NCBI GenBank assembly: GCA_021463485.1
Contig: JAJTYJ010000003.1
Span: 23,292-87,291, forward strand
Direction: 5' to 3'
Source of the DNA: a bacterium
GTDB lineage: Bacteria > Patescibacteriota > UBA1384 > 2-12-FULL-50-11
Length of the DNA stretch: 64,000 nt
Program-made: the position numbers and the translations under genes
Part shown: positions 9,893 to 41,292 of the stretch, in pieces
How positions within the stretch are numbered: position 1 is the stretch's first letter
Layout of the letters: every line of letters starts with the position of its first letter
Notes under the pieces: model-generated
The model's database searches: none
Seen by the model: the letters and a program-made list of their open reading frames with translations, nothing else
What the model was told of the DNA's origin: nothing

Positions 9893-12800
9893 ATGAGGAG
9901 GGTGGCAACGGCTATTTCTAAGTCCTGGGCTCGAATTATCCGTGCGCTGGCGTACTATCCGCTCGGTTTTTACCTAGGCTTGTTACTAATTGTCGCAGCC
10001 GCGTTTCTATACTGGGCGCAAACAGATCTGGGTTGGAAATTTGATTGGGTACAGTTACAGCGGTGGATTTCAAACCACGCCATGGCGATACTAGCCTTGT
10101 TTACAGGCTTGCTCGGTTTAGTGCTAATCGGAAGTGCGATCGCGTATAAACAGGTAATTGACCTATCGAAACAGGAGTACGTACTATGGCTCCATCAACG
10201 AGCGACGAAAGTACTTTTCCCGGTTTTTTCTCCGCTGCACGACTGGATCCGTTTGCGCAGCCGAATATATCATTGGTGGCACGCTCAATCGTTCTCAAAC
10301 GTTACGCACTATTTCTTGCTTATTATCGCAATCGGTGGATTAGCAAAAACCACTGTTAACTACATTAGTTCAGCTCAAGCGTCGCACGGCTGTTCGGATG
10401 CGGTAACGATTACTGTTAATACAACCTGGTCAACGAACCAATGCCACGGTGATGTCGTGATTCGAAACGGCGCAACCTTAACAATTAACGGCGGCATAAC
10501 AGCCGATTTGAGTAGCCTAAGCGTCGGTAGCGACTCGCCGGCAGAGAACGGATTTATTGTCGCTAAAGGGGACACATTAAACAATCTGGGGGTCGTGTTA
10601 AATGTTGATGGAGCTGTTTACGTCCGAGCTAGTAGCTCAATTAATGCCGACGCTCAGGGTTACCTTGGTGGTCGGTCCGGTGACGTAAACGGTAAGGGCC
10701 CTGGCGGTGCAACGACAGACGGGACAAGTACCGCAGGGGGTGGTGGATACGGAGGCGCAGGCAGCAATGGTTCTGGTTCAAATGCCGGAGGAAGCTCCTA
10801 CGGCACTCTAGCTGCCCCAGTTGATCTAGGATCTGGTGGTGGATTTGCTACAGGCTGTTGTAGTAATAACGGTGGCGATGGTGGTGGTGCTATTAAGATT
10901 AATGCACCCTCGAGCACGGTCACGTTAAACGGAACAATATCTGCAAATGGTGGAGCAGGTGGCAGCGGATGTTGCGCTTATGCTGGTGGTGGATCAGGCG
11001 GAAGTATCTGGGTTGTTGCTAACACTCTGGCCGGGTCCGGGGAGGTTAGAGCCCACGGCGGTGCTGGTGGCTCTGGTGGAGCTGGTGAAAGTAATAACGG
11101 CGGAGCAGGGGCGGGTGGACGTGTTCAACTGACATTCTCCTCTGACATATCAACGATCACTAAGTTGGCATATGACGGGGGTAACAACGGTGCTAACCGT
11201 CGCGGTGCTGCAGGAACTGTTTCAACTAGCAGTGAGTTGATTATTGCAAACAACGCTTCGCCAACAATTCTGCCAACCGTGGCTACTCCGCTCTCTGGTT
11301 CATTGAGTTACGCAAACACAACTATAAAAGATAATGCTTACGTTACATTGGCGTCGGGTGCAAATCTTTCTGGCGGTACAACCCTAATCCAAAATAATAC
11401 TAAAACAACGTTACTTGCGAGTAATACAGTTTGGTCTGGGGGCTCTCTAACGGTTCAAACCGGTGCGAATACAATTAATATACCTAAAGACGTGTCTACA
11501 GAACCAAATTTTTCCTCGATTAATATTGGTACAGGAACGCTACAACACGACTCTCATACAAGTACCCACACCTATTCGTTAATTTTAAGCACTTCGGGTT
11601 CTGTCACCATCACGGGTACGATCAATGTAGACGATAAGGGATATGCCGGAGGGACTTCAGGCTCCGCGGATGGTAAGGGGCCGGGAGGTGGTTTAGACGG
11701 AGCTTCTAATGATGCTCCTGGAGCAGGTCACGGTGGAACCGGCGGTAACGGGGCAACAGTTAACGGCGGTGCAAGCTACGGTAATTTATCTTCACCGACA
11801 GATCTTGGCTCTGGTGGGGGTGGGACTTCCTCAAGCTCGTTTAATAATGGCGGTAATGGCGGTGGAGCGGTAAAGATTACTGCGTCATCCGGTACCGTGA
11901 CGGTCAACGGAACGATTACTGCTAACGGTTCTACTGGGTTCTCCGCATGTTGTAACTACGCTGGCGGCGGCTCTGGTGGAAGTATCTGGATTATCGCTAA
12001 CACACTTGCTGGCTCTGGCACGGTCAGAGCCAACGGCGGTGCTGGTGGTTCTGGTGGAGCTGGTGAGAGCAATAACGGCGGCGCTGGTGCAGGTGGAAGA
12101 ATACAGCTCACATATAGTAGTGATACCTCGAGTATCACTAAACTGGCCTTTGATGGAGGCAATAATGGGGCAAATCGTCGCGGTGCCGCGGGAACTGTTT
12201 CAACTAGTAGTGGCTTAACCGTCGCTAACAGCACATTGGTAACAGTAATGCCCGTTGTTTCGACACCAATAAGTGGGACGCATAACTACCCAGCTACAAG
12301 TATTAAGGATTATGTCTACGTGACACTTGCAGCTGGTGCTAATCTTTCCGGTGGAACAACCACAATCGAGAATAACACCCGCACAACCCTACTTGGGGAT
12401 GATACTGTTTGGACTGGTGGGGCGCTCACAGTTCAAACCGGTACTAATACGATAAATGTTAAGCCAACTATTAGCACTAAACCTCTTTTTTCAAGTATCA
12501 ACTTTAGTAGCGGGAACGTATACCACGATGATCATACAACCGCAGATAACTACCATATTATTCTTAGTGCTACCGGCAATATTACGGTTGGAACTACCAT
12601 TAATCTAACTGGTTTAGGATTCTCTGGGGGAGCAGCAAACAGCACAGGTAACGGTACGGGCCCAGGGGTTGGAGGTGTTACTATACATGCCGGTGGTGCC
12701 CACGGTGGGAATGGTGGAACAGGTGCAAGTAGCGGCGGCGCTGGTGGTACTGCCTATGGATCAACGCTTACTCCTATAACACTTGGCTCGGGGGGCGGTG

Positions 12801-15601
12801 GCGCTGAAGGAATTAATGGTGGTGATGGCGGTGGGGGAAGGATCGCGAGACACTATACCAGTTCCACATACTCGGGTACTGTCTCCGTAGTCAAGGGTTC
12901 TGGTTCGTGTGCTGCAGGTCAAAATGGTACTAATCAGACAGTCGGTGCAGTGACGGACCTAATAGTGACTGGGATCTCTACCCCGCGAACGGCTGGCATC
13001 ACGAGCTCGGTTGTAGTCGAGGCGCGTGACGCGTCTAATAACCGCAATTACGCGTATACAAAAGCTATCACATTTACTTCAACCGACTCCCAGGCGACGT
13101 TGCCGGGAAATTACACGTTTACGATTGCCGATGCGGGACTTGCAACAATCCCTGGAGTCATTCTTAAAACCGCCGGCACACAAACGGTGACAGCTGACCA
13201 AACCGATGATGGGACTGTCGACGGAACACACGCCAACATAACCGTAAATGCAGGTAGCGTTACGAATTTAGTCGTCAGCGGTGTAACTGATCCTGTGACC
13301 GCTGGCACATCTACAAGCCCAACTGTTACTGCTAAAGACGCATATACAAATACCGTTAGCGGGTATACCGGCACCGTCACGTTTACATCAAGTGACTCGC
13401 AGGCGACGTTGCCAGTCAATTACACATTTGTTGGCGGCGATGCCGGTGTGAAAACGTTTACCAACGGAGTCGTCTTAAAAACAACTGGCGTGCATTCAAT
13501 TACTGCCAGCGACGGTACGATCAGTGGAACAATCCAGAACATCAATGTAACTGCCGGACAACCGACGAAGCTAAAAATTAGCAATATTACTTCACCGATC
13601 GCAGCTAATACCCCTGCTTCCCCGACAGTAGCGGTTCAAGACCAGTACAACAACACAGCAACTGGTTACACCGGAACTATTACCTTTAGCTCAAGCGACG
13701 CCGCTGCAACGCTACCGAGTAATTACGCGTTTTCAGTGAGCGATCAGGGTGTTCGAACATTTACGAACGGTGTAACCTTTGCGACTGGTGGGACACATTC
13801 ACTAATTGCAACGGACGTTAGCTCGCCAACGATCAATGGTACGTTATCAAGCATCGTCGTAACGGCTGCACCAAGCCCCGGTAGTACAAGCCAACCGTCG
13901 TTAACGATTGTGCTAATCCAGCCGTCGGAAGGTACCTTCTTTGGAACGATCACACAACAAGTAAACGGATTACCATTAGAAATTACCGTAACTGGGACCG
14001 TGAAAGGCAACCAAATAAACGGCACCGTCTCGGGTACTTACAACGAGCAGCCAGTAACTGGAACGATCACCGGTACAGTTAAAGGACAAAAAATTGAGTC
14101 GGCGATACTAACGCTCTTCAACGCGAACGACCCAGGATTTAACCTTACGGTCGTAGTTGGTGGGGTAATTAGTCCGCCAGATAGTCCTAAACAAGAACCC
14201 GACTGTAAGCTTCGTGGTACGCTCGAGCTGACAATCGACGGTAAAAAGTTTAGTGGCGAGGTCCAGTTAACAATTAGCCCAGATGGTAGCGTCACGGGGA
14301 GAGCAAAAGGATTTCTAGACAACGATCGGGTATTTGGTACGTTCAGCGCCAGCTCGGTTGAGGGTAGGCTGATCGGTGGAACAGTTACGTTAACAAGTAA
14401 TAATAACAACTCACCGATCACCGGCGAGATAATCGGTAGCGTTCGAGATGGTGAAATACAGTTAACCAATGCCGAACACTGCAATATATCTACTGATGTT
14501 TTAATTGATACCGATGAAGACGGCGACGCTGATGGCGAGGGTACGGGCAACGTCGAGATCGACGAACCGGTTTCATCGAGTGATGTTATAAACGGTTCGA
14601 TCATCGGAACTGTCGAGGGACAAACAGCTAACGAAGATGTAATCGTTAACGGATTATTTGAAGCGCTAGTCTCAGATGTTGTGATTAAACCGACAGAGCT
14701 AAAATTTGAGACAAACGAACAGAACGACTTAATCTCTGGCGCGCTGGCAGTGGTGAGCGGTTTGTCTGTTCTACCAATCCTGCCTGCTGTCCAGAGTATC
14801 CTTCTGACATCTTCAACTCGGGGTTTCACTTTCATTCATTGGTTCTTCTTTGGCTATACGCCTCGCAAACGACGCAAGTTCTGGGGAGTTATTAAAGATA
14901 AAACAACCGGCGTTCCAGTTGCAGGAGTACTTGTTAAGCTAGTAGACGTTCATAATGATCGGGTAATAAACCAGTACCGAACTGATAAGACGGGTCGTTA
15001 CGGTTTCTTAGTGGAAACGGTGGGGGACTACCGAATAACAATTATTGATCCGTTGTATGCTGCCTTTAGTAGTAAAGAATTCTCAGTCGATAGCTTGAAA
15101 CAACCGATAGTAACCGGGGATATTCAGCTAACTCCAGTTCACCAGAGACAGCTGCAACTTCTAAATAAGACGTTTGTCTGGGTTGCGGCGATAAAAGTTC
15201 TTAATATCATCCACTGGTCGTTGCTGATTGGAGGAACAATCCTTTCGGTTATGCTTGTTGCTGATCATCCGACGACGTTAAGAACCTTAATTGCGTCGCT
15301 GTATTCGGTACTGTGGTTGTCGAAATTACTCGGATATCGTCGAGAACGGCATTACGGACAAGTAACGGATACAGACGGCGCACCACTTGCTCGTGCAGTC
15401 GTACAGCTAACAAACCAATCCGGTGAAACAACAGCACATATTCACTCGACAGTTACCGACGCTAAAGGTCGATTTGTCCTATTGGTAAAGCCCGGAGTTT
15501 ATACTGTTATTGTTGCCAAAGACGGGTATAAGACTCGACAAGGCGCTGTTATTGCTGACGAGGCGAATATGACTATTCGTCTCGAACGAGTAGATTCTTA
15601 A
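9893..15601 (+). CDS. Giant (1902 aa) membrane-anchored surface protein: N-terminal 2 TM helices, ~2.3 tandem Gly/Asn/Ser-rich beta-helix-like modules with paired Cys (GCC), 4 Ig-like (Big/invasin-type) repeats, Thr-rich region, C-terminal TM helices with two carboxypeptidase-regulatory-like beta-sandwich domains
   Basis: Direct reading of translation: repeated GGAGGSGGAGESNNGGAGAGGR modules, repeated VT.L.VSG.T.P..AG..TS..V.A.DAY.N....YTGT.TF.SSD..ATLP.NY.F blocks x4, C-terminal YRTDKTGRYGF / TDAKGRFVLLVKPGVYTV CarbopepD_reg-like motifs. Confidence 0.7.
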   Translation: MRRVATAISKSWARIIRALAYYPLGFYLGLLLIVAAAFLYWAQTDLGWKFDWVQLQRWISNHAMAILALFTGLLGLVLIGSAIAYKQVIDLSKQEYVLWLHQRATKVLFPVFSPLHDWIRLRSRIYHWWHAQSFSNVTHYFLLIIAIGGLAKTTVNYISSAQASHGCSDAVTITVNTTWSTNQCHGDVVIRNGATLTINGGITADLSSLSVGSDSPAENGFIVAKGDTLNNLGVVLNVDGAVYVRASSSINADAQGYLGGRSGDVNGKGPGGATTDGTSTAGGGGYGGAGSNGSGSNAGGSSYGTLAAPVDLGSGGGFATGCCSNNGGDGGGAIKINAPSSTVTLNGTISANGGAGGSGCCAYAGGGSGGSIWVVANTLAGSGEVRAHGGAGGSGGAGESNNGGAGAGGRVQLTFSSDISTITKLAYDGGNNGANRRGAAGTVSTSSELIIANNASPTILPTVATPLSGSLSYANTTIKDNAYVTLASGANLSGGTTLIQNNTKTTLLASNTVWSGGSLTVQTGANTINIPKDVSTEPNFSSINIGTGTLQHDSHTSTHTYSLILSTSGSVTITGTINVDDKGYAGGTSGSADGKGPGGGLDGASNDAPGAGHGGTGGNGATVNGGASYGNLSSPTDLGSGGGGTSSSSFNNGGNGGGAVKITASSGTVTVNGTITANGSTGFSACCNYAGGGSGGSIWIIANTLAGSGTVRANGGAGGSGGAGESNNGGAGAGGRIQLTYSSDTSSITKLAFDGGNNGANRRGAAGTVSTSSGLTVANSTLVTVMPVVSTPISGTHNYPATSIKDYVYVTLAAGANLSGGTTTIENNTRTTLLGDDTVWTGGALTVQTGTNTINVKPTISTKPLFSSINFSSGNVYHDDHTTADNYHIILSATGNITVGTTINLTGLGFSGGAANSTGNGTGPGVGGVTIHAGGAHGGNGGTGASSGGAGGTAYGSTLTPITLGSGGGGAEGINGGDGGGGRIARHYTSSTYSGTVSVVKGSGSCAAGQNGTNQTVGAVTDLIVTGISTPRTAGITSSVVVEARDASNNRNYAYTKAITFTSTDSQATLPGNYTFTIADAGLATIPGVILKTAGTQTVTADQTDDGTVDGTHANITVNAGSVTNLVVSGVTDPVTAGTSTSPTVTAKDAYTNTVSGYTGTVTFTSSDSQATLPVNYTFVGGDAGVKTFTNGVVLKTTGVHSITASDGTISGTIQNINVTAGQPTKLKISNITSPIAANTPASPTVAVQDQYNNTATGYTGTITFSSSDAAATLPSNYAFSVSDQGVRTFTNGVTFATGGTHSLIATDVSSPTINGTLSSIVVTAAPSPGSTSQPSLTIVLIQPSEGTFFGTITQQVNGLPLEITVTGTVKGNQINGTVSGTYNEQPVTGTITGTVKGQKIESAILTLFNANDPGFNLTVVVGGVISPPDSPKQEPDCKLRGTLELTIDGKKFSGEVQLTISPDGSVTGRAKGFLDNDRVFGTFSASSVEGRLIGGTVTLTSNNNNSPITGEIIGSVRDGEIQLTNAEHCNISTDVLIDTDEDGDADGEGTGNVEIDEPVSSSDVINGSIIGTVEGQTANEDVIVNGLFEALVSDVVIKPTELKFETNEQNDLISGALAVVSGLSVLPILPAVQSILLTSSTRGFTFIHWFFFGYTPRKRRKFWGVIKDKTTGVPVAGVLVKLVDVHNDRVINQYRTDKTGRYGFLVETVGDYRITIIDPLYAAFSSKEFSVDSLKQPIVTGDIQLTPVHQRQLQLLNKTFVWVAAIKVLNIIHWSLLIGGTILSVMLVADHPTTLRTLIASLYSVLWLSKLLGYRRERHYGQVTDTDGAPLARAVVQLTNQSGETTAHIHSTVTDAKGRFVLLVKPGVYTVIVAKDGYKTRQGAVIADEANMTIRLERVDS
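10640..12860 (+). repeat. Intragenic tandem duplication (period ~975 bp, ~2.3 copies) inside the giant protein gene, conserved at nucleotide level
   Basis: e.g. 10990-11140 (ggtggatcaggcggaagtatctgggttgttgctaacactctggccgggtccggg...) nearly identical to 11962-12110 (ggcggcggctctggtggaagtatctggattatcgctaacacacttgctggctctggc...). Confidence 0.75.
12940..13870 (+). repeat. Four tandem ~300-bp Ig-like domain repeats within giant protein gene
   Basis: Repeated protein blocks ...TFTS[ST]DSQATLP.NYTF... seen four times. Confidence 0.65.
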
Positions 15602-18418: not shown

Positions 18419-18778
18419 TTACTGGATTTTCTCGAGTTTCCAGCTAATTGTGTCGGTAGATTTCGTCTGGTAGTCGGCTGCGCCAACCTGAGCCAGCTCG
18501 CCGTTGACGTAAAATGCCCAAAATTCATCACTACCGGCTTTCCGGCCGTTGATCGACAGAACCATCTGGCCAAAGTCGAATTTCTGTGTCTCAATTTCGT
18601 AACTAGCGTCAAGTAGCTCTAACGCATTTTTGCCGTCAACGCCCTTGTAGCTAATTTCTGTGGTCTGTTCTTGACCAACCGGAGTTGCGGTATCGCTTGA
18701 TCTTGGAATCACCAAGTACAAACCAAATGCTAATATAATCGCCATCGCGGCGTAGAGTAGTGTTCGTTGTTGTTTCAT
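18419..18778 (-). CDS. DUF4430-like (transcobalamin-like fold) small secreted protein
   Basis: N-terminal TM/signal, C-terminal FWAFYVNGELAQVGAADY resembling DUF4430 W.YYVNG motif; RBS GGAG 4 nt before ATG. Confidence 0.5.
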   Translation of the reverse strand: MKQQRTLLYAAMAIILAFGLYLVIPRSSDTATPVGQEQTTEISYKGVDGKNALELLDASYEIETQKFDFGQMVLSINGRKAGSDEFWAFYVNGELAQVGAADYQTKSTDTISWKLEKIQ

Positions 18779-18840: not shown

Positions 18841-19003
18841 ACTTTGAGTGAAGTTTTGTTAGGATCGGGCTTTAACCGTTGCGGCACAGCAGCCAAATTT
18901 CATGGCTTTCACTAACAAGACTTTTATAGTCAAAGAACTTCTCTAGGTATACTGTTCGACCTCCTACCTGTCAAGCAGGCATTTTTACGGGTAAAATACT
19001 CAT

Positions 19004-25991: not shown

Positions 25992-26140
25992 CGCAGCCTC
26001 CTGCTTTTTGTAAAAATACACAAAAGCGCTTCCTTGCGGAAGCGCTTCGTGGAAGCCGGTAAGCCGGGTTCTGTTTATACGACCATCTCTCTGATGCGTT
26101 GAGACCATTCGTAACTGCGAGACCGCAGTGGAGCTCGGTG

Positions 26141-26405
26141 TTTCTCTCGAAACGTTGAACTTAATTTACGAAGGGCCCACTCAACTTGCACCACGCTGGG
26201 TTTGGCTTCCAATCCGTATTACTACGGAAGTTGTGAGCTCTTACCTCACTCTTTTCATCCTTACCCACCAATTGGCGGGCGGTTTGGTTTCTGTGCCACT
26301 TTCCCGTGCCTTGCGACAGCCAGCCGTTAGCTGGAGCGCGTCTCTACGGTGCCCGGACTTTCCTCATGTTAAATAACACGCGATCGTTTCGACTTCGACA
26401 AAAGA
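26141..26405 (-). ncRNA. rnpB: RNase P RNA (bacterial type A), compact ~265 nt
   Basis: Minus strand contains GAGGAAAGUCCGGGCAC (P4 5' strand), GGUAAGAGCUCAC (P10-P12 region), ACAGAAACCAAACCGCC, and terminal helix UCGAAACG/CGUUUCGA (P1); ends approximate. Confidence 0.8.
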
Positions 26406-34900: not shown

Positions 34901-36583
34901 ATGCAGGTGATGTTATATGCAGAGGTAATCGTGGCGACTCGAACTAACACACAAGAACTTACCTACGCTGTTAGTGCTCAAATTGTACCTTATATAAGGT
35001 TGGGTAGTCTAGTTACCGTACCGCTCCGGCGCAAAACCGTACGCGGTGTTGTGGTTCGATTGCGTCAAAGCGTTCCAATTCAAATTAAATCGAAACTTCG
35101 TGAGATTCTTAATATTGATCGTAGCGGAATGATCGCTCCAGCATCAATTAAAGTTATGCAATCACTCTCAGAGCACTACGGAGCGAGTTTGGCAGAGGTT
35201 GCCTACCACCTATTAAGAGAAACAACGCCGTCGGCAAGTAGCGGTTCTGTTGGCCAAAACAATGACCCGATCTACGTCCAAGCAGCGTGGCTGCAGCGTC
35301 AAGAACAATATATGTCGTTGGTTAAAGCGTTTCCGGGGAGAGTGCTTTTACTTTTTTCACAACAAGAATACCTTGCTTCGTTTGAGCGTTCGTTATTACA
35401 AACTCCAGCGCTGCGAAGACGGTGCTTGTTAAAAACCTTATCTGGCGCTTTCTCCCAGTTACCACTAGGCTCGATGATTATCGTCGACCAACCGTATCAC
35501 ATTGGTGGAAAGTCGATGCGTCGACCGTTTATGACTACAAAATCGATCGCTGAAACTCGAGCGCAGTACGAGGGGCATCAACTTGTACTAGGTAACGGAG
35601 TGCTCGGGTTCGAAGAGATAATAAATGTGAGCGAGAAAAAAGCAGAACTTGTTTCTATCTCGCCGCCGTCCGTATCGTTTGTAGTCACTAAACAAACTAC
35701 GCGTCAGGGTATCGGCGAGACGACGATTAACCAAATTAACGAGGTGTTATCTGAGCAAAAAAATGTCGCTGTCATTACCCCATCTGGGAGTTGGGCACCG
35801 GCGTTCTTTTGCTCAGATTGCCAAAGCACACTTCAATGTCCGCGCTGCGCGCGGCCGATCGGGCTAATTTCACCTACAACTCACCAGTGTCAGTATTGCG
35901 GTTATACACAACAGCGATTAGCCGTCTGCCCGAGTTGCCAGAGCGAGAATCTAGTCGAAGTCGGCGTTGGGGTTCGACAGCTGCAAGCGTTTATTAAAAA
36001 GCACATCCCGAAGTCGGTGGTTGTTGAGTTAGGCGATAAAGACCTAGATAACAGCGGTAAAATACTCGTCACTAATGAAAAGTTTTTCAGCAACCCCATT
36101 CATCGGTTTGGCTTAGTTGTATTAGTCGGTTGGGATCGATTAGTTTCCGGCGTTTTTCCTGACGGCAACTGGCGTCTACTTAACACTATCATCGAGATTC
36201 AAGGCCAAGTACCGTCGATTGTGGTTGAGACACTCTACCCTGAACACTACTGCTGGGGGAACGTTACAGCCAAAAAACTACGTCGTTTTTTTGAAGAAGA
36301 GCTGAAAGAGCGACGACGCTTATCGCTCCCGCCGTACGGGCAGATTATCGAGGTTGTCGGTCGCGGTTCGATTCGTACGCTAGAGCATCAACAGGAAGAA
36401 TTACTACAAAAACTTGAGTCAAAAGGATACACTGTCTTACCAAAATCCTCGCTCGTTCGCGGCAGAAGTTACGAACTATCATTATCTGTCTTTTCTTCAA
36501 AAAAGTTTTCAACCAAACAGAAGCAACAGATCCGTGAGCAGCTACCGCCAAGTTGGCATTTAGATGTCGACATTGCGAGTTAG
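34901..36583 (+). CDS. PriA-like primosomal protein lacking helicase ATPase motifs (pseudo-helicase): 3' DNA-binding domain + Cys-rich zinc-binding region + C-terminal domain retained
   Basis: N-terminal 3'BD-like YAEVIVATRTNTQELTYAVSAQIVPYIRLGSLVTVPLRRKTVRGVVVRL; PriA Cys cluster FFCSDCQSTLQCPRCARPIG...HQCQYCGY...CPSCQS; where Walker A (GSGKT) and DEEH would be there is VLLLFSQQEY and IIVDQPYH. Confidence 0.6.
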   Translation: MQVMLYAEVIVATRTNTQELTYAVSAQIVPYIRLGSLVTVPLRRKTVRGVVVRLRQSVPIQIKSKLREILNIDRSGMIAPASIKVMQSLSEHYGASLAEVAYHLLRETTPSASSGSVGQNNDPIYVQAAWLQRQEQYMSLVKAFPGRVLLLFSQQEYLASFERSLLQTPALRRRCLLKTLSGAFSQLPLGSMIIVDQPYHIGGKSMRRPFMTTKSIAETRAQYEGHQLVLGNGVLGFEEIINVSEKKAELVSISPPSVSFVVTKQTTRQGIGETTINQINEVLSEQKNVAVITPSGSWAPAFFCSDCQSTLQCPRCARPIGLISPTTHQCQYCGYTQQRLAVCPSCQSENLVEVGVGVRQLQAFIKKHIPKSVVVELGDKDLDNSGKILVTNEKFFSNPIHRFGLVVLVGWDRLVSGVFPDGNWRLLNTIIEIQGQVPSIVVETLYPEHYCWGNVTAKKLRRFFEEELKERRRLSLPPYGQIIEVVGRGSIRTLEHQQEELLQKLESKGYTVLPKSSLVRGRSYELSLSVFSSKKFSTKQKQQIREQLPPSWHLDVDIAS

Positions 36584-36686: not shown

Positions 36687-38042
36687 ATGGATGTTCGAAT
36701 AATTTACGAACCGATCTTACGCCAAGTGATGAAGCCGGTCACGGTTTTTGACGAGCGATTAAAAAAAGAAGCCGACGAGATGGTCGCTACGATGCATCGC
36801 CAAAACGGTATCGGATTAGCGGCTAATCAAGTTGGCTTAGATAAGCAACTAATTGTTCTCGAATTCACGCCGCAAAAGGACGATGAGACACCAGCCATTC
36901 CTCGAACGCAGCTCTGCAACCCTAAAATTGTTAAAAGCTCGAGCGAAACAGAAGTTATGACTGAGGGCTGCTTGTCGTTGCCTGGTCTTGAATTACCTGT
37001 TCGTCGCAGTCTCGCAGTCGTGGTTGAGGCGCAAAATCTTCGAGGGGAAAAAGTAACAATTAAAGCCAAGGGACTATTTGCTCGAGTGCTTCAGCACGAG
37101 ATCGACCATCTTAACGGGGTTCTTTTTACTGATCGGACTGAAAAAACCAACACTATAAAGCCGTATACGTTCGCTAAAGTAGTATTTTTTGGCAGCGACG
37201 ATTTTAGCCTACCAGTTCTTAGAAGCGTTATTGAAACTGGCTACCAAGTGGTGGCTGTTTTCTGTGAGTCTGACAAACGTGGCGGGCGTGGGGATAATCG
37301 TATCATCTCACTAGTTAAAACGTTCGCCGAGCAACACAGCATTGCTGTATTTAGCCCTGAAACTAAAGAAGAGATCGCGCCGCTGCTTGCACAGATTAAA
37401 CCTGATCTCTTGGTATTGGCGTCCTATGGAAAGATCCTACCCGAGGAGGCATTGCGTCAACCGGTTTTCGGTTGTCTAAATGTTCACCCATCGCTATTAC
37501 CAAAATACCGCGGCGCAACACCGATTCAATCCGCCATATTAAACGGAGAAACCGAAACTGGCGTAACGATTATGTCGATGGCTAAATCTGTCGATGCCGG
37601 TGGAGTTATTGCGCAGCGAACAGCCCCGATCCTACCGAGCGATACTACGCCAGTACTCAGGGAGAAGCTGGCTGAACTTGGATCTCAACTACTAGTTGAA
37701 TTATTGCCAAAGTATTTAAGCGGTCAGGCAAAAATTATCGCTCAAGACGATGCACTGGCTACGCAGACAACCAAACTTTCTAAAGAGCTTGGTCGAATAA
37801 ATTGGGACGAACCAGCTGAACTGATTGTTAGAAAAATTAGAGCATTCTTGCCCTGGCCAGGAACGTATACGACGTTGAACGGGAAGCGCTTCATTATTCT
37901 TGAAGCAACGGTGAAGGATAGTACTGTGTTACCAATACGGGTACAGCTAGAGGGTAAAACCGCCGTGAATTGGGAGGATTTCTTGCGTGGATACCAAAGC
38001 CAATTGACTCGAGAACCCTGGTACGGTAAAATTTATCGGTAA
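36687..38042 (+). CDS. def-fmt: Fusion protein: peptide deformylase (N-terminal ~165 aa) fused in frame to methionyl-tRNA formyltransferase (C-terminal ~285 aa)
   Basis: Def motifs GIGLAANQVG, EGCLSLPG, HEIDHLNG followed without stop by Fmt N-domain KVVFFGSDDFSLPVL and HPSLLPKYRGATPIQSAILNGE; single continuous 451-aa ORF. Confidence 0.85.
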   Translation: MDVRIIYEPILRQVMKPVTVFDERLKKEADEMVATMHRQNGIGLAANQVGLDKQLIVLEFTPQKDDETPAIPRTQLCNPKIVKSSSETEVMTEGCLSLPGLELPVRRSLAVVVEAQNLRGEKVTIKAKGLFARVLQHEIDHLNGVLFTDRTEKTNTIKPYTFAKVVFFGSDDFSLPVLRSVIETGYQVVAVFCESDKRGGRGDNRIISLVKTFAEQHSIAVFSPETKEEIAPLLAQIKPDLLVLASYGKILPEEALRQPVFGCLNVHPSLLPKYRGATPIQSAILNGETETGVTIMSMAKSVDAGGVIAQRTAPILPSDTTPVLREKLAELGSQLLVELLPKYLSGQAKIIAQDDALATQTTKLSKELGRINWDEPAELIVRKIRAFLPWPGTYTTLNGKRFIILEATVKDSTVLPIRVQLEGKTAVNWEDFLRGYQSQLTREPWYGKIYR

Positions 38043-38458
38043 TGTTAGTTATTCGTTTACGCCGCGTCGGCAAAAAAAACAAACCAACGTATCGAATTGT
38101 TGTTGCAGAACACTCTTTTCCGGTTGACGGCAAATTTACTGCTGATTTAGGGTTTTATAACCCACACACCAAGGCAGTGGGCCTAAAAAAGGAAGAAGCG
38201 GTTGACTGGATGAATAAAGGCGCTCAGCCTTCTAATACTGTTGCCAAAATTCTCGAAAAGGAAAAAGTTAAGCACGGTTCCGTTGTTGTAATAAAAAAGA
38301 AGAAGCAACCAAAAAAGGCGACCGAACCGAAAGAACCAAAAACTGCTGAACATTCAGCTCCAGAAGAAGCTGCTGAAGTTACCCCAACGACTGAGCCAAC
38401 AACAGAAGTGGCTGAAGGTACTCCAGCAAGCGAAGACTCGAGCGATACTCAAGCCTAA
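38042..38458 (+). CDS. rpsP: 30S ribosomal protein S16 with Lys/Glu/Pro-rich C-terminal extension
   Basis: MLVIRLRRVGKKNKPTYRIVVAEHSFPVDGKFTADLGFYNPHT. Confidence 0.9.
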   Translation: MLVIRLRRVGKKNKPTYRIVVAEHSFPVDGKFTADLGFYNPHTKAVGLKKEEAVDWMNKGAQPSNTVAKILEKEKVKHGSVVVIKKKKQPKKATEPKEPKTAEHSAPEEAAEVTPTTEPTTEVAEGTPASEDSSDTQA

Positions 38459-38506: not shown

Positions 38507-38878
38507 GTGGTAACAGGATTTTTTCGGTGGTGGTATAGCGAAGGAATTGTTCAAAGCGGACAGATTGTCTTGTACGCCGTTAATCGGATTACTGATTTCT
38601 TTTCGTTACCGATACTTATTAAAACTTGGACTGCGCCGTGGAAAGACGATCGTCTCGCGGCCGACAACGCCTCGCTTTCTGATCAAGTAAAGATACTCGA
38701 ATTAAATTTTGCCAGTCGAGTCGTCGGATTTTTAGTACGAACTGTTGTAATCGCGGTGGTTCTATTAATTTTAGCGGTACTTATAATACTGGCTGTAGTT
38801 GGCTTGGCGATTTGGATTTTAGTTCCGTTTGCCTGGCTATTACTACCAACAGTAGCAGTGATTGTGAGTTATCAATGA
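38507..38878 (+). CDS. Membrane protein, hypothetical (123 aa), translationally coupled to downstream AAA+ gene
   Basis: C-terminal hydrophobic helices VVIAVVLLILAVLIILAVVGLAIWILVPFAWLLLPTVAVIV; stop overlaps next start (ATGA). Confidence 0.45.
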   Translation: MVTGFFRWWYSEGIVQSGQIVLYAVNRITDFFSLPILIKTWTAPWKDDRLAADNASLSDQVKILELNFASRVVGFLVRTVVIAVVLLILAVLIILAVVGLAIWILVPFAWLLLPTVAVIVSYQ

Positions 38879-41292
38879 AGCAAAAGCTGCGAACGCAATC
38901 GATTCTCTTTTTCGACTCAACAACTATATTGGTTATTAGAATATTTTCGCACTTCTTGGGCGCTGTGAGCGTGCTGCTAATCATCGCGGCCTTGTTTTTC
39001 GAGCTTTCCCCGGCTGTTATCGGGCTAGCAGTCTTATTTACGACGCCATCGGTTCTATTTCTTGGTTACGGTTGGTATATTAACTTCCTTAAAATTAACC
39101 CAAGTTACGGGCTAACTTCGCGAGATCTCGAGTTGCCAGAGAACAGGTTGGATTTTGCGGTTTGGGAAGCGGTACTAGCAATGCAAAAAGGCGGTTGGAG
39201 CGGTTTTTGGCGGCGCATCAGCAGTGATGTTAATGCCCTGGAAGTATTATTGCGCCTACAGCTTTCCGAGGCTAAGTTAATAGAACTTTTTGAGAGCAAG
39301 GTGTCGAGTGGTGATTTAACTTCTGTACTAATCCGGGAAGTTGGGCAAACAATTAACGATGGCTCGGTGGGGACGGTTTTTGATCTTCTTTCGATTACGC
39401 TAAGTCACCAGGAATTTGCGCCACATTTTACAGCGCTAAAAATCTCTCCCGAAGAAGTTGAGCAGTTAATTGGGTACTATCGGGATCGACACGCACGGTT
39501 TCGCGCTCGACAGTTGTTTTGGCTTCATCCAGAACTGGCTAGAACCGGCGGATTTGCTGCTGGTTGGGCGTTGAGTTATACATCGACACTTGATCGATTT
39601 ACAGAAGAAATTACCTCCTCGATTAAATTCCATACCGAGCAGACGCCGTTATTTTCTCGATCGAGCGTTGTTGACTTAGTAATTTCTGAGCTCCAAAAAC
39701 AATCGAACCACAACGTATTGCTCGTAGGAGAAGAGGGGAGCGGGCGCAAAGAAATCTTTTATCACGTTGCGGATAAGCTTCTGCACTACCAATCAAATAC
39801 GCCGCTCGACGGCATCCAGGTACGGCTTCTCGACTCCGCGCGGTTAGTTGCGGCAACTGATAGCGTCGAACACTTACAGCAATTACTTGATCAAATTTTT
39901 ACGGAGATCAGTCGCTCGGGAAGAATTGTACTATTTATCGATCAACTCGAATCGTTACTTTCGGACAACAGCGTCGGAACAGTGAATCTGAGCCAGGTGT
40001 TAGCGAAATATCTTCAAGACGAGCGGATCCACATCGTCGCTACAATACAAACTAAAACTTACGTCACGCAAATTAAACCTGACGCTACGCTCGCTTCAAT
40101 TTGGGCAAAAATAGATATCGCGCCGCCTCCTAGTGCCGATTTACCGCTAATTATACTCTCCCATATCGCCCGCATTGAAAACCGTTACGACGTCTTCTTT
40201 AGCTATACTGCCTTGCGAGCGGTTACGCAGCTCTCCGGTCAGTATCTAACCGACTTACCTTCACCTGAGCGTGAGTTGATGATTACCGAGGAAGTAGCGG
40301 CGCGCAATCACGGTGAAAATAACCGAATTGTTGAGCCAAACGCTGTCACGAAGGTGATCGAGCAAAAAAGCGGAGTGCCGATAGAAGTCGGTGAGTCGGA
40401 AAAAGTGAAGCTCCAAGATCTGCCAAACATTCTCCATCAGCGAGTGATCGGCCAGGATGAAGCGATCCAGGCGGTGAGTGACGCTCTCTTGCGGGCTAGA
40501 GCAGGTATCGGAACGGGGAAGAAACCGCTCGGAACCTTCCTATTTCTCGGACCGACCGGGGTTGGGAAAACTGAAACAGCTCGTACGCTTGCCCAAATGT
40601 ATTTTGGCAGCCCAGATAAACTTATTCAGCTCGATATGACTGAGTACGGAGCCGAGGACGGCTTACAAAAACTACTCGGGACTGACGCGGTTTCACAGCC
40701 AGGTACGCTAACTATTGCGCTCGAAAAAAATCCGTCAGCGGTCCTTTTGTTCGACGAGTTCGAAAAGGCTCACCAGCTCGTGCAAAACACCTTACTCCAA
40801 ATCCTCGATGAGGGTAGGCTAACCACCAACTTCGGTAAGGTACTGCATTTCACCAACACAATTATTATCGCCACCAGCAACGCCGGCTCAAACTTTATTA
40901 AGCAGCAAGTTGAATCTGGACAAACAGTAAAATCCTTTAGTAAACAGCTAATCGATCAGTTAATTGCTGAGCGCGTGTTCACGCCTGAGCTTCTTAATCG
41001 TTTCGATACTGTTGCTGTTTACTCGCCGCTTTCGGCTAGCCAAATTGAGGCGATCGCAAAATTAAGAATCAACGAAACGCTCCAGAGTATCGAGCGAGAT
41101 AAAGGTATAATCGTTAGAGTTAACGATGCGGTAATTACGGAAATCGCAAAAAAGGGCTACGATCCAGTGTTCGGAGCTCGAGCTCTCTCACGAGTTATCA
41201 AATCAGAACTCGAAACTCAGATCGCTAGAAAAATTATTAGCGAGTCGCCCCAACCCGGCGCGACGCTAACCATCGATTCGCTGAGTAAGTAA
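38875..41292 (+). CDS. Membrane-anchored ClpB/ClpC-like double AAA+ ATPase: 2 N-terminal TM helices, Clp_N-like repeats, degenerate AAA+ D1 (Walker A GEEGSGRKE; Walker B FIDQLE), canonical D2
   Basis: D2: GPTGVGKTETARTLA (Walker A), VLLFDEFEKAH (Walker B), sensor/Arg finger region; D1 motifs degenerate as quoted; N-terminal hydrophobic segments. Confidence 0.7.
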   Translation: MKQKLRTQSILFFDSTTILVIRIFSHFLGAVSVLLIIAALFFELSPAVIGLAVLFTTPSVLFLGYGWYINFLKINPSYGLTSRDLELPENRLDFAVWEAVLAMQKGGWSGFWRRISSDVNALEVLLRLQLSEAKLIELFESKVSSGDLTSVLIREVGQTINDGSVGTVFDLLSITLSHQEFAPHFTALKISPEEVEQLIGYYRDRHARFRARQLFWLHPELARTGGFAAGWALSYTSTLDRFTEEITSSIKFHTEQTPLFSRSSVVDLVISELQKQSNHNVLLVGEEGSGRKEIFYHVADKLLHYQSNTPLDGIQVRLLDSARLVAATDSVEHLQQLLDQIFTEISRSGRIVLFIDQLESLLSDNSVGTVNLSQVLAKYLQDERIHIVATIQTKTYVTQIKPDATLASIWAKIDIAPPPSADLPLIILSHIARIENRYDVFFSYTALRAVTQLSGQYLTDLPSPERELMITEEVAARNHGENNRIVEPNAVTKVIEQKSGVPIEVGESEKVKLQDLPNILHQRVIGQDEAIQAVSDALLRARAGIGTGKKPLGTFLFLGPTGVGKTETARTLAQMYFGSPDKLIQLDMTEYGAEDGLQKLLGTDAVSQPGTLTIALEKNPSAVLLFDEFEKAHQLVQNTLLQILDEGRLTTNFGKVLHFTNTIIIATSNAGSNFIKQQVESGQTVKSFSKQLIDQLIAERVFTPELLNRFDTVAVYSPLSASQIEAIAKLRINETLQSIERDKGIIVRVNDAVITEIAKKGYDPVFGARALSRVIKSELETQIARKIISESPQPGATLTIDSLSK

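What the first reader, a model, noticed from the sequence alone, without database searches (positions are those of the whole stretch)
36687..38042. Natural in-frame fusion of peptide deformylase and methionyl-tRNA formyltransferase
def and fmt are usually adjacent but separate genes. Here one 451-aa ORF carries all three Def metal-site motifs (GxGxAAxQ, EGCLS, HExxH) followed directly by an intact Fmt. The two enzymes act on opposite ends of the N-formyl-Met cycle, so a covalent fusion is mechanistically odd and may co-localise them on the ribosome.
Basis: seen in the sequence. Interest (0 to 1): 0.55.

Follow-up and report, generated by a model that had tools for sequence, protein, structure and literature searches.

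The report
Conserved deformylase–formyltransferase fusion gene
This is a real single gene joining the enzyme that formylates the starting methionine of bacterial proteins to the enzyme that removes the formyl group; it is conserved across a group of tiny-genome (CPR) bacteria, and the same kind of fusion is already known and shown to work in Exiguobacterium, so it is only mildly unusual.

Summary
Window 36687-38042 (+) is one uninterrupted 451-aa ORF. It carries a complete peptide deformylase domain (residues 1-149, all three metal and catalytic motifs), a 14-residue linker, and a methionyl-tRNA formyltransferase (164-451, above NCBIfam's equivalog cut-off).

It is not an assembly artefact. 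The identical protein sits on 5 independent contigs. At least 120 protein clusters (96-40% identity) have the same architecture, and the catalytic residues of both halves are invariant in 85 aligned members. Named relatives are Patescibacteria (CPR). About 20 kb around the gene is collinear with a complete Candidatus Berkelbacteria genome that carries the same fusion.

The fusion is not clade-wide in CPR: 15 other CPR loci that carry both genes keep them separate. It has arisen several times elsewhere, with unrelated linkers (Exiguobacterium, Fermentithermobacillaceae, Nealsonbacteria).

A 2025 paper reported the Exiguobacterium fusion and showed that it complements E. coli Δdef-fmt. UniRef already names some of these "Multifunctional fusion protein".

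The kind is therefore known; this CPR family is a new, undescribed member. The AlphaFold model (pLDDT 95.7, pTM 0.90) suggests a rigid unit without the free C-terminal helix that anchors E. coli deformylase to the ribosome. Ribosomal co-localisation remains untested.

The parts
36687..38042 (+). def-fmt fusion gene, 451 codons plus TAA
   Evidence: Single ORF. Pfam and NCBIfam hits to both families are above the curated cut-offs. The identical protein is found on 5 contigs.
36687..37133 (+). Peptide deformylase domain (residues 1-149)
   Evidence: PF01327 at 6-154, 1.6e-48. PDB sequence hits to deformylases reach 2.9e-31.
36807..36830 (+). Def motif 1, GIGLAANQ (G41-Q48)
   Evidence: Read from the sequence. 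G43 and Q48 are invariant in 85 fusion homologues.
36963..36977 (+). Def motif 2, EGCLS (E93-S97; C95 is a metal ligand)
   Evidence: Read from the sequence. E93, C95 and S97 are invariant.
37095..37109 (+). Def motif 3, HEIDH (H137-H141; two His metal ligands and the catalytic Glu)
   Evidence: Read from the sequence. H137, E138, D140 and H141 are invariant.
37134..37175 (+). Linker RTEKTNTIKPYTFA (R150-A163), with no in-frame ATG/GTG/TTG
   Evidence: It is the least conserved stretch (0.38 versus ~0.6 elsewhere), but its length is conserved: 19 residues between D149 and G169 in 56 of 85 sequences. It is non-helical, with pLDDT about 88, in the AF2 model. Codons were read.
37176..37703 (+). 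Fmt N-terminal (formyltransferase, Rossmann-type) domain, residues 164-339
   Evidence: PF00551, 2.4e-40. TIGR00460 at 259.6 bits against a cut-off of 201.5.
37287..37289 (+). R201, aligned with E. coli Fmt Arg42 in the tRNA-recognition loop (RGGRGD against PAGRGK)
   Evidence: Alignment to 1fmt. Invariant in 85 homologues. The role of Arg42 is from my own knowledge of E. coli Fmt.
37479..37487 (+). N265-V-H267 of the NVHPSLLPKYRG motif (catalytic Asn and His, aligned with E. coli N108/H110)
   Evidence: H267 is invariant and N265 is conserved in >=90% of sequences.
37593..37595 (+). D303 (catalytic Asp, aligned with E. coli D146)
   Evidence: Invariant.
37773..38039 (+). Fmt C-terminal (tRNA-binding, beta-barrel) domain in the short CPR form, residues 363-451
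   Evidence: PF02911 matches only profile positions 1-50 of 100. There is a deletion of about 25 residues relative to Bacillota fusions. Foldseek still aligns about 303 columns to full-length Fmt structures, TMt 0.82-0.85.
34901..36583 (+). Upstream neighbour: PriA-like protein
   Evidence: PF17764 PriA_3primeBD. The same neighbour is present in L081 and in Berkelbacteria CP066697.1.
38042..38458 (+). Downstream neighbour: ribosomal protein S16 gene, whose ATG overlaps the fusion's stop codon (TAATG)
   Evidence: PF00886. The overlap was read. The same order is seen.

Best explanation
The gene encodes one bifunctional polypeptide. Its C-terminal Fmt part formylates Met-tRNAfMet from 10-formyl-tetrahydrofolate. 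Its N-terminal metallo-deformylase part removes the formyl group from nascent chains. It most likely arose when the stop codon was lost between the adjacent, co-transcribed def and fmt genes that lie between priA and rpsP. The short Def C-terminal tail became the 14-residue linker. The fusion then became fixed in a Berkelbacteria-related lineage of Patescibacteria (CPR).

Shown here: the single ORF, the integrity and invariance of both catalytic sites, conservation across the lineage, independence from the other fusion lineages, and a confidently predicted compact three-domain structure.

Inferred: both activities are present, by analogy with the tested Exiguobacterium fusion. The benefit of fusion is obligatory 1:1 co-production in a streamlined genome. 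With Def placed first, any truncating mutation in def also removes Fmt. That would turn a lethal defect (formylation without deformylation) into the viable def-fmt double-null state.
For: One ORF with no internal stop and no in-frame start codon in the linker. Both families score above their curated cut-offs. The Def metal and catalytic residues G43, Q48, E93, C95, H137, E138 and H141 are invariant in 85 homologues of 39-78% identity, as are Fmt H267, D303 and R201; N265 is conserved in >=90%. The identical protein is on 5 contigs. There are >=120 clusters with all three Pfam domains. The same priA / def-fmt / rpsP order, within ~20 kb of collinear genes, is present in the complete Ca. Berkelbacteria genome CP066697.1. 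The AF2 model has pLDDT 95.7 and pTM 0.90; the Fmt part is only 64% of the chain, so this pTM requires a confident placement of Def relative to Fmt (inference). The Fmt part superposes on solved Fmt structures, including the tRNA complex 2fmt, with TMt 0.82-0.85. In many unfused genomes def and fmt lie in the same frame separated by a single stop codon, so one mutation is enough to fuse them. The Exiguobacterium def-fmt fusion rescues E. coli delta-def-fmt (PMC12690207). Loss of def is lethal, but fmt def double mutants are viable (PMC4745127).
Against: No biochemical or genetic test exists for this family. The 1:1 stoichiometry and 'fail-safe' rationales are inferences. Fmt acts on free tRNA while Def acts at the ribosomal exit, so a tight fusion could constrain one of them. 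The Fmt C-terminal domain is shortened and only half of PF02911 matches. I could not check whether these genomes carry a second, stand-alone def, as Exiguobacterium does; only the 64 kb window was scanned and it has none.
Confidence: 0.82

Rival explanations
1. Sequencing or assembly artefact: a lost stop codon or a frameshift has merged two separate genes.
For: In many other genomes def and fmt are in frame and separated by only one stop codon, so a single base error could mimic a fusion.
Against: The identical 451-aa protein is on 5 independent contigs. A 96%-identical cluster has 27 member sequences, and >=120 clusters down to 40% identity share the architecture. A complete genome, CP066697.1, has it too. 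Linker length is conserved across the family.
Confidence: 0.01
2. Emergent function: the fusion tethers Fmt and Def together on the ribosome, or Fmt replaces the missing Def ribosome anchor, coupling initiation and N-terminal processing in space.
For: The predicted unit is compact and rigid (pTM 0.90). The free C-terminal helix that anchors E. coli PDF to L22 (PMC8712518) is absent; the model has only a short helix at 147-150 before Fmt strand beta-1. The downstream rpsP start codon overlaps the fusion's stop codon.
Against: There are no data on ribosome binding. Unfused CPR Defs also have only short C-terminal tails of 14-21 residues, so the short tail is a lineage trait and not a consequence of fusion. 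Independent fusions have linkers from about 0 to 58 residues, which argues against one required geometry. The Exiguobacterium fusion works with E. coli ribosomes (PMC12690207).
Confidence: 0.1
3. One half is a degenerate, non-catalytic module (a pseudo-enzyme), and the real activity is supplied by a stand-alone paralogue elsewhere in the genome.
For: Exiguobacterium genomes with the fusion also encode a second PDF (PMC12690207). Only 64 kb of this genome could be inspected.
Against: All catalytic and metal-binding residues of both halves are invariant or nearly so across 85 diverged homologues. Both halves exceed the equivalog cut-offs. Conservation is as high in the Def domain (0.64) as in the Fmt domains (0.61 and 0.59).
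Confidence: 0.04
4. The C-terminal part is a different formyltransferase (ArnA/sugar-type or 10-formyl-THF hydrolase-like), not Met-tRNA formyltransferase.
For: It shares the fold and the N-H-D triad with those enzymes, and ArnA and related families also give hits. The C-terminal domain is atypically short.
Against: Only TIGR00460 (fmt) passes its curated cut-off; ArnA scores 163.8 against 777. Solved Fmts are the best matches at 32-36% identity, against 26-28% for ArnA. The counterpart of E. coli Arg42 in the tRNA-recognition loop is invariant. The gene occupies the canonical fmt position directly after def.
Confidence: 0.03

Closest known systems
Exiguobacterium def-fmt fusion (461 aa, e.g. 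WP_021067074.1; reported and tested in PMC12690207, Mol Biol Evol 2025)
   Same: Same order (Def N-terminal, Fmt C-terminal), one ORF, and all catalytic motifs present. It is conserved within its genus. UniRef names it 'Multifunctional fusion protein'. It complements E. coli delta-def-fmt.
   Different: It is only 41% identical to the window protein. Its linker is unrelated and shorter (LFTDKLAVPDKGTDQRIVFMG). Its Fmt C-terminal domain is full length. It falls apart from the window's clade in the Fmt-domain tree, so the fusion event was independent. Its host is a cultured Bacillales genus that also has a second PDF.
Other natural Def-Fmt fusions found here: Candidatus Fermentithermobacillaceae and other Bacillota (L003, L004, L016, P0144), and Candidatus Nealsonbacteria (P0151, UniRef 'Multifunctional fusion protein')
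   Same: Same two-enzyme architecture in a single ORF.
   Different: The linkers differ in length (about 0 to 58 residues) and in sequence. The Fmt C-terminal domains are of the long type. They form separate clades.
Canonical def-fmt operon (E. coli, B. subtilis): separate PDF (~170 aa) and Fmt (~315 aa)
   Same: Same gene order and neighbourhood (priA upstream in many bacteria), the same catalytic residues and the same folds.
   Different: In the operon a stop codon lies between the two genes, and E. coli PDF ends in a free C-terminal helix that docks on ribosomal protein L22 (PMC8712518). Here that segment is a 14-residue non-helical linker.
ArnA (bifunctional formyltransferase/decarboxylase)
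   Same: It is a formyltransferase domain of the Fmt fold fused to a second enzyme of the same pathway.
   Different: The partner domain, its order in the chain and the substrate all differ. ArnA's NCBIfam model is far from met (163.8 against 777 bits).

Membership tests
Peptide deformylase (PF01327 / TIGR00079) | Profile score above the curated cut-off | tested here: met
   PF01327 scores 164.7 bits (cut-off 22.8); TIGR00079 scores 159.2 (cut-off 103.95).
Peptide deformylase (PF01327 / TIGR00079) | Three motifs GxGxAAxQ, EGCxS and HExxH, carrying the Cys and two His metal ligands and the catalytic Glu | tested here: met
   All are present, and the key residues are invariant in 85 homologues.
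Peptide deformylase (PF01327 / TIGR00079) | Deformylase activity on fMet-peptides | not testable with these tools
   Inferred from conservation and from the tested Exiguobacterium fusion (PMC12690207).
E. coli-type (1B) PDF | Free C-terminal alpha-helix that binds ribosomal protein L22 | tested here: not met
   Only 14 residues separate D149 from the start of Fmt. The AF2 secondary structure shows no long helix after 142. The alignment with E. coli PDF is. This feature defines a subtype, not the family.
Methionyl-tRNA formyltransferase (TIGR00460 equivalog) | Equivalog score above the cut-off, and better than for related formyltransferases | tested here: met
   259.6 bits against a cut-off of 201.5. 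The ArnA, PurN and PurU models are all far below their cut-offs.
Methionyl-tRNA formyltransferase (TIGR00460 equivalog) | Catalytic Asn-His-Asp triad and the SLLPxxRG motif | tested here: met
   N265, H267 and D303 align with E. coli N108, H110 and D146. H267 and D303 are invariant; N265 is conserved in >=90%.
Methionyl-tRNA formyltransferase (TIGR00460 equivalog) | tRNA-recognition loop 1 with the Arg42 equivalent | tested here: met
   RGGRGD aligns with PAGRGK of 1fmt. R201 is invariant.
Methionyl-tRNA formyltransferase (TIGR00460 equivalog) | C-terminal beta-barrel tRNA-binding domain | tested here: inconclusive
   PF02911 matches only its first half, and about 25 residues are deleted. The model nevertheless aligns over ~303 columns with full-length Fmt, TMt 0.82-0.85. 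Unfused CPR Fmts align to the end of the same family profile.
Methionyl-tRNA formyltransferase (TIGR00460 equivalog) | Formylation of Met-tRNAfMet | not testable with these tools
Natural Def-Fmt fusion proteins ('Multifunctional fusion protein') | Def and Fmt in one ORF, Def first, conserved among related genomes | tested here: met
Natural Def-Fmt fusion proteins ('Multifunctional fusion protein') | Both activities supplied by the single polypeptide (complementation of delta-def-fmt) | not testable with these tools
   Shown only for Exiguobacterium alkaliphilum (PMC12690207).
Exiguobacterium fusion lineage specifically | Common descent of the fusion event (homologous junction, one clade) | tested here: not met
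   The linkers are unrelated. The two lie in separate positions in the NJ tree of Fmt domains, with unfused Fmts in between. Unfused CPR Fmts score higher against the family profile (up to 339 bits) than the Bacillota fusions do (243-279 bits).

The most novel reading that the evidence does not exclude
In this CPR family Def and Fmt are not beads on a string. They would form a rigid, co-evolved single enzyme in which the Fmt body replaces the ribosome-anchoring C-terminal helix of Def. N-terminal deformylation would then use a different docking mode on the CPR ribosome, or would occur off the ribosome, and formylation and deformylation capacity would be physically coupled. This would be a distinct solution to the organisation of the fMet cycle in minimal cells.
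Probability: 0.1. Interest if true: 0.55.

Novelty: new member of a known kind. Interest (0 to 1): 0.25.

Why it matters
The finding shows that the formylation/deformylation pair has been welded into one gene repeatedly, and stably, in a whole lineage of ultra-small CPR bacteria. GenBank names the protein only 'methionyl-tRNA formyltransferase'. A name-based survey could therefore score these genomes as lacking peptide deformylase. That matters for gene-content surveys of CPR bacteria and for the assumption that PDF inhibitors have a stand-alone target. The family also offers a natural, compact bifunctional enzyme. It could be used to ask how a PDF without a free ribosome-binding helix finds nascent chains. 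Beyond that it is an ordinary fusion of two neighbouring pathway genes.

Tried and rejected
1. A Foldseek search of AFDB50, meant to list full-length fusion models with their organisms, could not run because the library was unavailable. The PDB search found no chain spanning both domains.

It returned mostly distant, unfused def/fmt pairs and not the close relatives. I reused it as a fused-versus-unfused survey. The sample is biased towards in-frame neighbours by the tblastn ranking, so the '3 of 80' figure and the frequency of single-stop junctions are not population estimates.

3. I looked for a second def or fmt in the window with phmmer on the six-frame translation and found none. The rest of the genome, and the complete Berkelbacteria genome, could not be scanned.

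4. The supplement of PMC12690207 did not contain the Exiguobacterium sequence. I recovered it through the representative search and the cluster look-up instead.

5. The promoter and terminator scan around the gene gave nothing above background that bears on the finding.

6. Strict regular expressions for the four motifs fail in 15 of 42 distant fusion representatives. These are motif variants under my strict patterns, and I did not take them as evidence of inactivation.

7. The NJ tree (251 columns, BLOSUM62 distances) is rough. Its 17 state changes should be read as 'several independent origins', not as a count.

8. Literature searches for a described CPR/Patescibacteria Def-Fmt fusion found nothing.

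Full report
**Observation**

The window holds a single ORF at 36687-38042 (+): ATG start, 451 codons, TAA stop. The three deformylase motifs are present as GIGLAANQ (G41-Q48), EGCLS (E93-S97) and HEIDH (H137-H141).

Pfam places Pep_deformylase at residues 6-154 (1.6e-48), Formyl_trans_N at 164-339 (2.4e-40) and Formyl_trans_C at 363-412 (7.8e-16; only profile positions 1-50 of 100). NCBIfam's equivalog models are both passed: fmt TIGR00460 scores 259.6 bits against a cut-off of 201.5, and pept_deformyl TIGR00079 scores 159.2 against 103.95. The ArnA, PurN and PurU models all fall far below their cut-offs.

Against PDB sequences, the C-terminal part matches Fmt (3q0i, 1fmt; E ~1e-55) and the N-terminal part matches deformylases (1lme; 2.9e-31). 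The only correction is that the linker is residues ~150-163, not 160-175.

**Not an artefact**

- The exact 451-aa protein is encoded on five contigs of independent assemblies.
- A search of 5.8 billion clustered proteins returned at least 120 clusters, from 96% down to 40% identity, and all but one partial protein carry all three Pfam domains. Nearly all of these are 448-467 aa long.
- In an alignment of 85 of them (39-78% identity), the Def residues G43, Q48, E93, C95, S97, H137, E138, D140 and H141 are invariant. So are Fmt H267, D303 and R201. N265 is conserved in at least 90%.
- By the alignment to 1fmt, N265/H267/D303 correspond to the E. coli catalytic triad N108/H110/D146. R201 corresponds to Arg42 of the tRNA-recognition loop. 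These residue roles come from my own knowledge of E. coli Fmt.
- Conservation is similar in the Def (0.64), Fmt-N (0.61) and Fmt-C (0.59) regions and lower in the linker (0.38). The linker length is nevertheless fixed: 19 residues between D149 and G169 in 56 of 85 sequences.
- No in-frame ATG, GTG or TTG lies between D149 and G169. Fmt therefore cannot be started separately near the junction.

**Host and gene context**

Named relatives come from Patescibacteria (CPR) MAGs: 'Patescibacteria group', Candidatus Berkelbacteria and Candidatus Saccharimonadales.

The gene order around the fusion is uvrA, bactofilin, a DAGK-like gene, infC, rpmI, rplT, lgt, lepB, der, priA, def-fmt, rpsP, a small membrane ORF, a ClpB-like ATPase, a KH protein, trmD, L25 and an ABC transporter. 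The same order occurs in the complete 768,650-bp Candidatus Berkelbacteria genome CP066697.1, whose fusion protein (P0046, QQG50227.1) is 57% identical. The window therefore comes from a Berkelbacteria-related CPR bacterium. The fusion occupies the canonical def-fmt position after priA. The S16 start codon overlaps the fusion's stop codon (TAATG). No second def or fmt lies in the 64 kb window.

**How widespread, and how many origins**

In a scan of GTDB species genomes, 80 loci were kept and only 3 have def and fmt in one ORF. Two are Fermentithermobacillaceae and one is another Bacillota.

Fifteen CPR loci in that set that carry both genes keep them separate. They come from Saccharibacteria, Woesebacteria, Buchananbacteria, Doudnabacteria, Paceibacterota/Parcubacteria, Magasanikiibacteriota, Microgenomatus and unclassified Patescibacteria. 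The fusion is therefore a trait of one sub-lineage and not of CPR as a whole.

Many unfused pairs are in the same frame and separated by a single stop codon. This shows how easily a fusion can arise, although the sample is biased towards such cases by the ranking method.

An exhaustive HMMER search of 1.84 billion 50%-identity representatives gave 6,563 hits at E<=1e-30. Of the top 150, 55 are fusions. This is a small minority, probably of the order of 1% of relatives.

Cluster look-ups identified other fusion lineages:
- Exiguobacterium (P0131, 461 aa; UniRef name 'Multifunctional fusion protein')
- Candidatus Fermentithermobacillaceae (P0144)
- Candidatus Nealsonbacteria (P0151; UniRef name 'Multifunctional fusion protein')

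Linker lengths range from about 0 to 58 residues, and linker sequences are unrelated between lineages. A rough NJ tree of 220 Fmt domains needs 17 fused/unfused changes. It places the window in an all-fused clade of 15 sequences, apart from Exiguobacterium and from the Bacillota clade. I read this as several independent fusions.

The short Fmt C-terminal domain of the window's family lacks about 25 residues. Unfused CPR Fmts align to the end of the same family profile, whereas non-CPR Fmts stop near position 250. The short form therefore looks like a lineage trait and not a by-product of fusion.

**Structure**

AlphaFold2 run on the 85-sequence alignment gives a mean pLDDT of 95.7 and a pTM of 0.90, with about 88 for the block containing most of the linker. 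Fmt makes up only 64% of the chain. A pTM of 0.90 therefore implies that Def is placed confidently relative to Fmt, giving a compact unit.

After the HExxH helix (129-142) the model has only a short helix (147-150) before Fmt strand beta-1 (164-168). The long C-terminal helix through which E. coli PDF binds ribosomal protein L22 (PMC8712518) is not present as a free element. Unfused CPR Defs also have only 14-21 residue tails.

Foldseek against the PDB finds full-length Fmts, including the fMet-tRNA complex 2fmt, at TMt 0.82-0.85 over ~303 columns. No solved chain covers both halves.

**Mechanism**

The best-supported reading is a bifunctional enzyme: Fmt formylates Met-tRNAfMet and Def deformylates nascent chains, both from one polypeptide. 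Integrity, conservation and architecture are shown here. Activity is inferred, supported by the Exiguobacterium fusion restoring growth of E. coli delta-def-fmt (PMC12690207, Fig. S1).

Loss of def is lethal, while def fmt double mutants are viable (PMC4745127). A Def-first fusion therefore guarantees that formylation is never expressed without deformylation, and that truncating def mutations also remove Fmt. This rationale, together with 1:1 co-production in a streamlined genome, is my inference and is untested.

**Comparison and novelty**

Natural Def-Fmt fusions are a known kind. They were reported and functionally tested for Exiguobacterium in 2025 (PMC12690207), and UniRef labels several of them 'Multifunctional fusion protein'.

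The family in this window is deposited in GenBank only as 'methionyl-tRNA formyltransferase'. I found no paper describing it. It is an independent fusion event with its own conserved linker and a compact predicted structure. I file it as a new member of a known kind, of modest interest (0.25).

The most novel reading still open is a rigid, co-evolved enzyme that docks on the ribosome differently because Fmt replaces the Def anchor helix. I give that about a 10% chance.

Noticed in passing
window 18852-18930 (-) and ORF 18419-18778 (-): An AdoCbl-II (cobalamin) riboswitch (RF01689, 46.8 bits) lies directly upstream of a 119-aa protein with an N-terminal hydrophobic segment and a DUF4430 domain (3.5e-15). 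DUF4430 is, from my own recollection, related to cobalamin-binding proteins. Together they look like a B12-regulated cobalamin-capture protein in a CPR genome.
   Followed up: partly
window 34901-36583 (+): The 560-aa PriA-like protein upstream of the fusion matches only the PriA 3'-DNA-binding domain in Pfam. No helicase or ATPase domain is detected at E<=1e-3. It may be a degenerate or highly divergent PriA. The precomputed Pfam annotation of its counterpart in the Berkelbacteria genome likewise lists only PriA_3primeBD.
   Followed up: no
window 38042-38458 (+): The ribosomal protein S16 gene starts with an ATG that overlaps the fusion's TAA (TAATG). The protein is 138 aa. The S16 domain covers only residues 8-64, and it is followed by a long Lys-rich and then acidic/Pro/Thr-rich tail.
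   Followed up: no
window 38507-38878 and 38812-41292 (+): A small hydrophobic ORF with no Pfam hit is followed by an 826-aa protein. That protein has hydrophobic N-terminal segments and a single ClpB-D2-type AAA_2 module plus ClpB_D2-small. It may be a membrane-anchored ClpB-like ATPase. The pair is conserved next to rpsP in Berkelbacteria.
   Followed up: no
window 9893-15601 (+): A very large ORF of 1902 aa in a small-genome CPR context. It was not characterised.
   Followed up: no
window 26044-26400 (-): A full-length bacterial class A RNase P RNA (195.1 bits). Seven tRNA genes are scattered through the window, none of them tRNA-Met.
   Followed up: no
loci L001, L002, L005, L006, L008, L012-L014, L020, L024, L025 and others: In many genomes from unrelated phyla, def and fmt are in the same reading frame and separated by exactly one stop codon. 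In L001, L002 and L020 the fmt start codon follows the stop immediately. Loss of one stop codon would then give a fusion. The sample is biased by tblastn ranking, so the true frequency is unknown.
   Followed up: partly
L048, L049, L005, L015, L055 (genome contigs records titled 'uncultured Gammaproteobacteria'): In L048 and L049 the Fmt aligns to the end of the CPR-family profile, which is the short CPR-type C-terminal domain. The submitters' taxonomic label for these two records may be wrong. The other three records align only to about position 250, like non-CPR Fmts.
   Followed up: no
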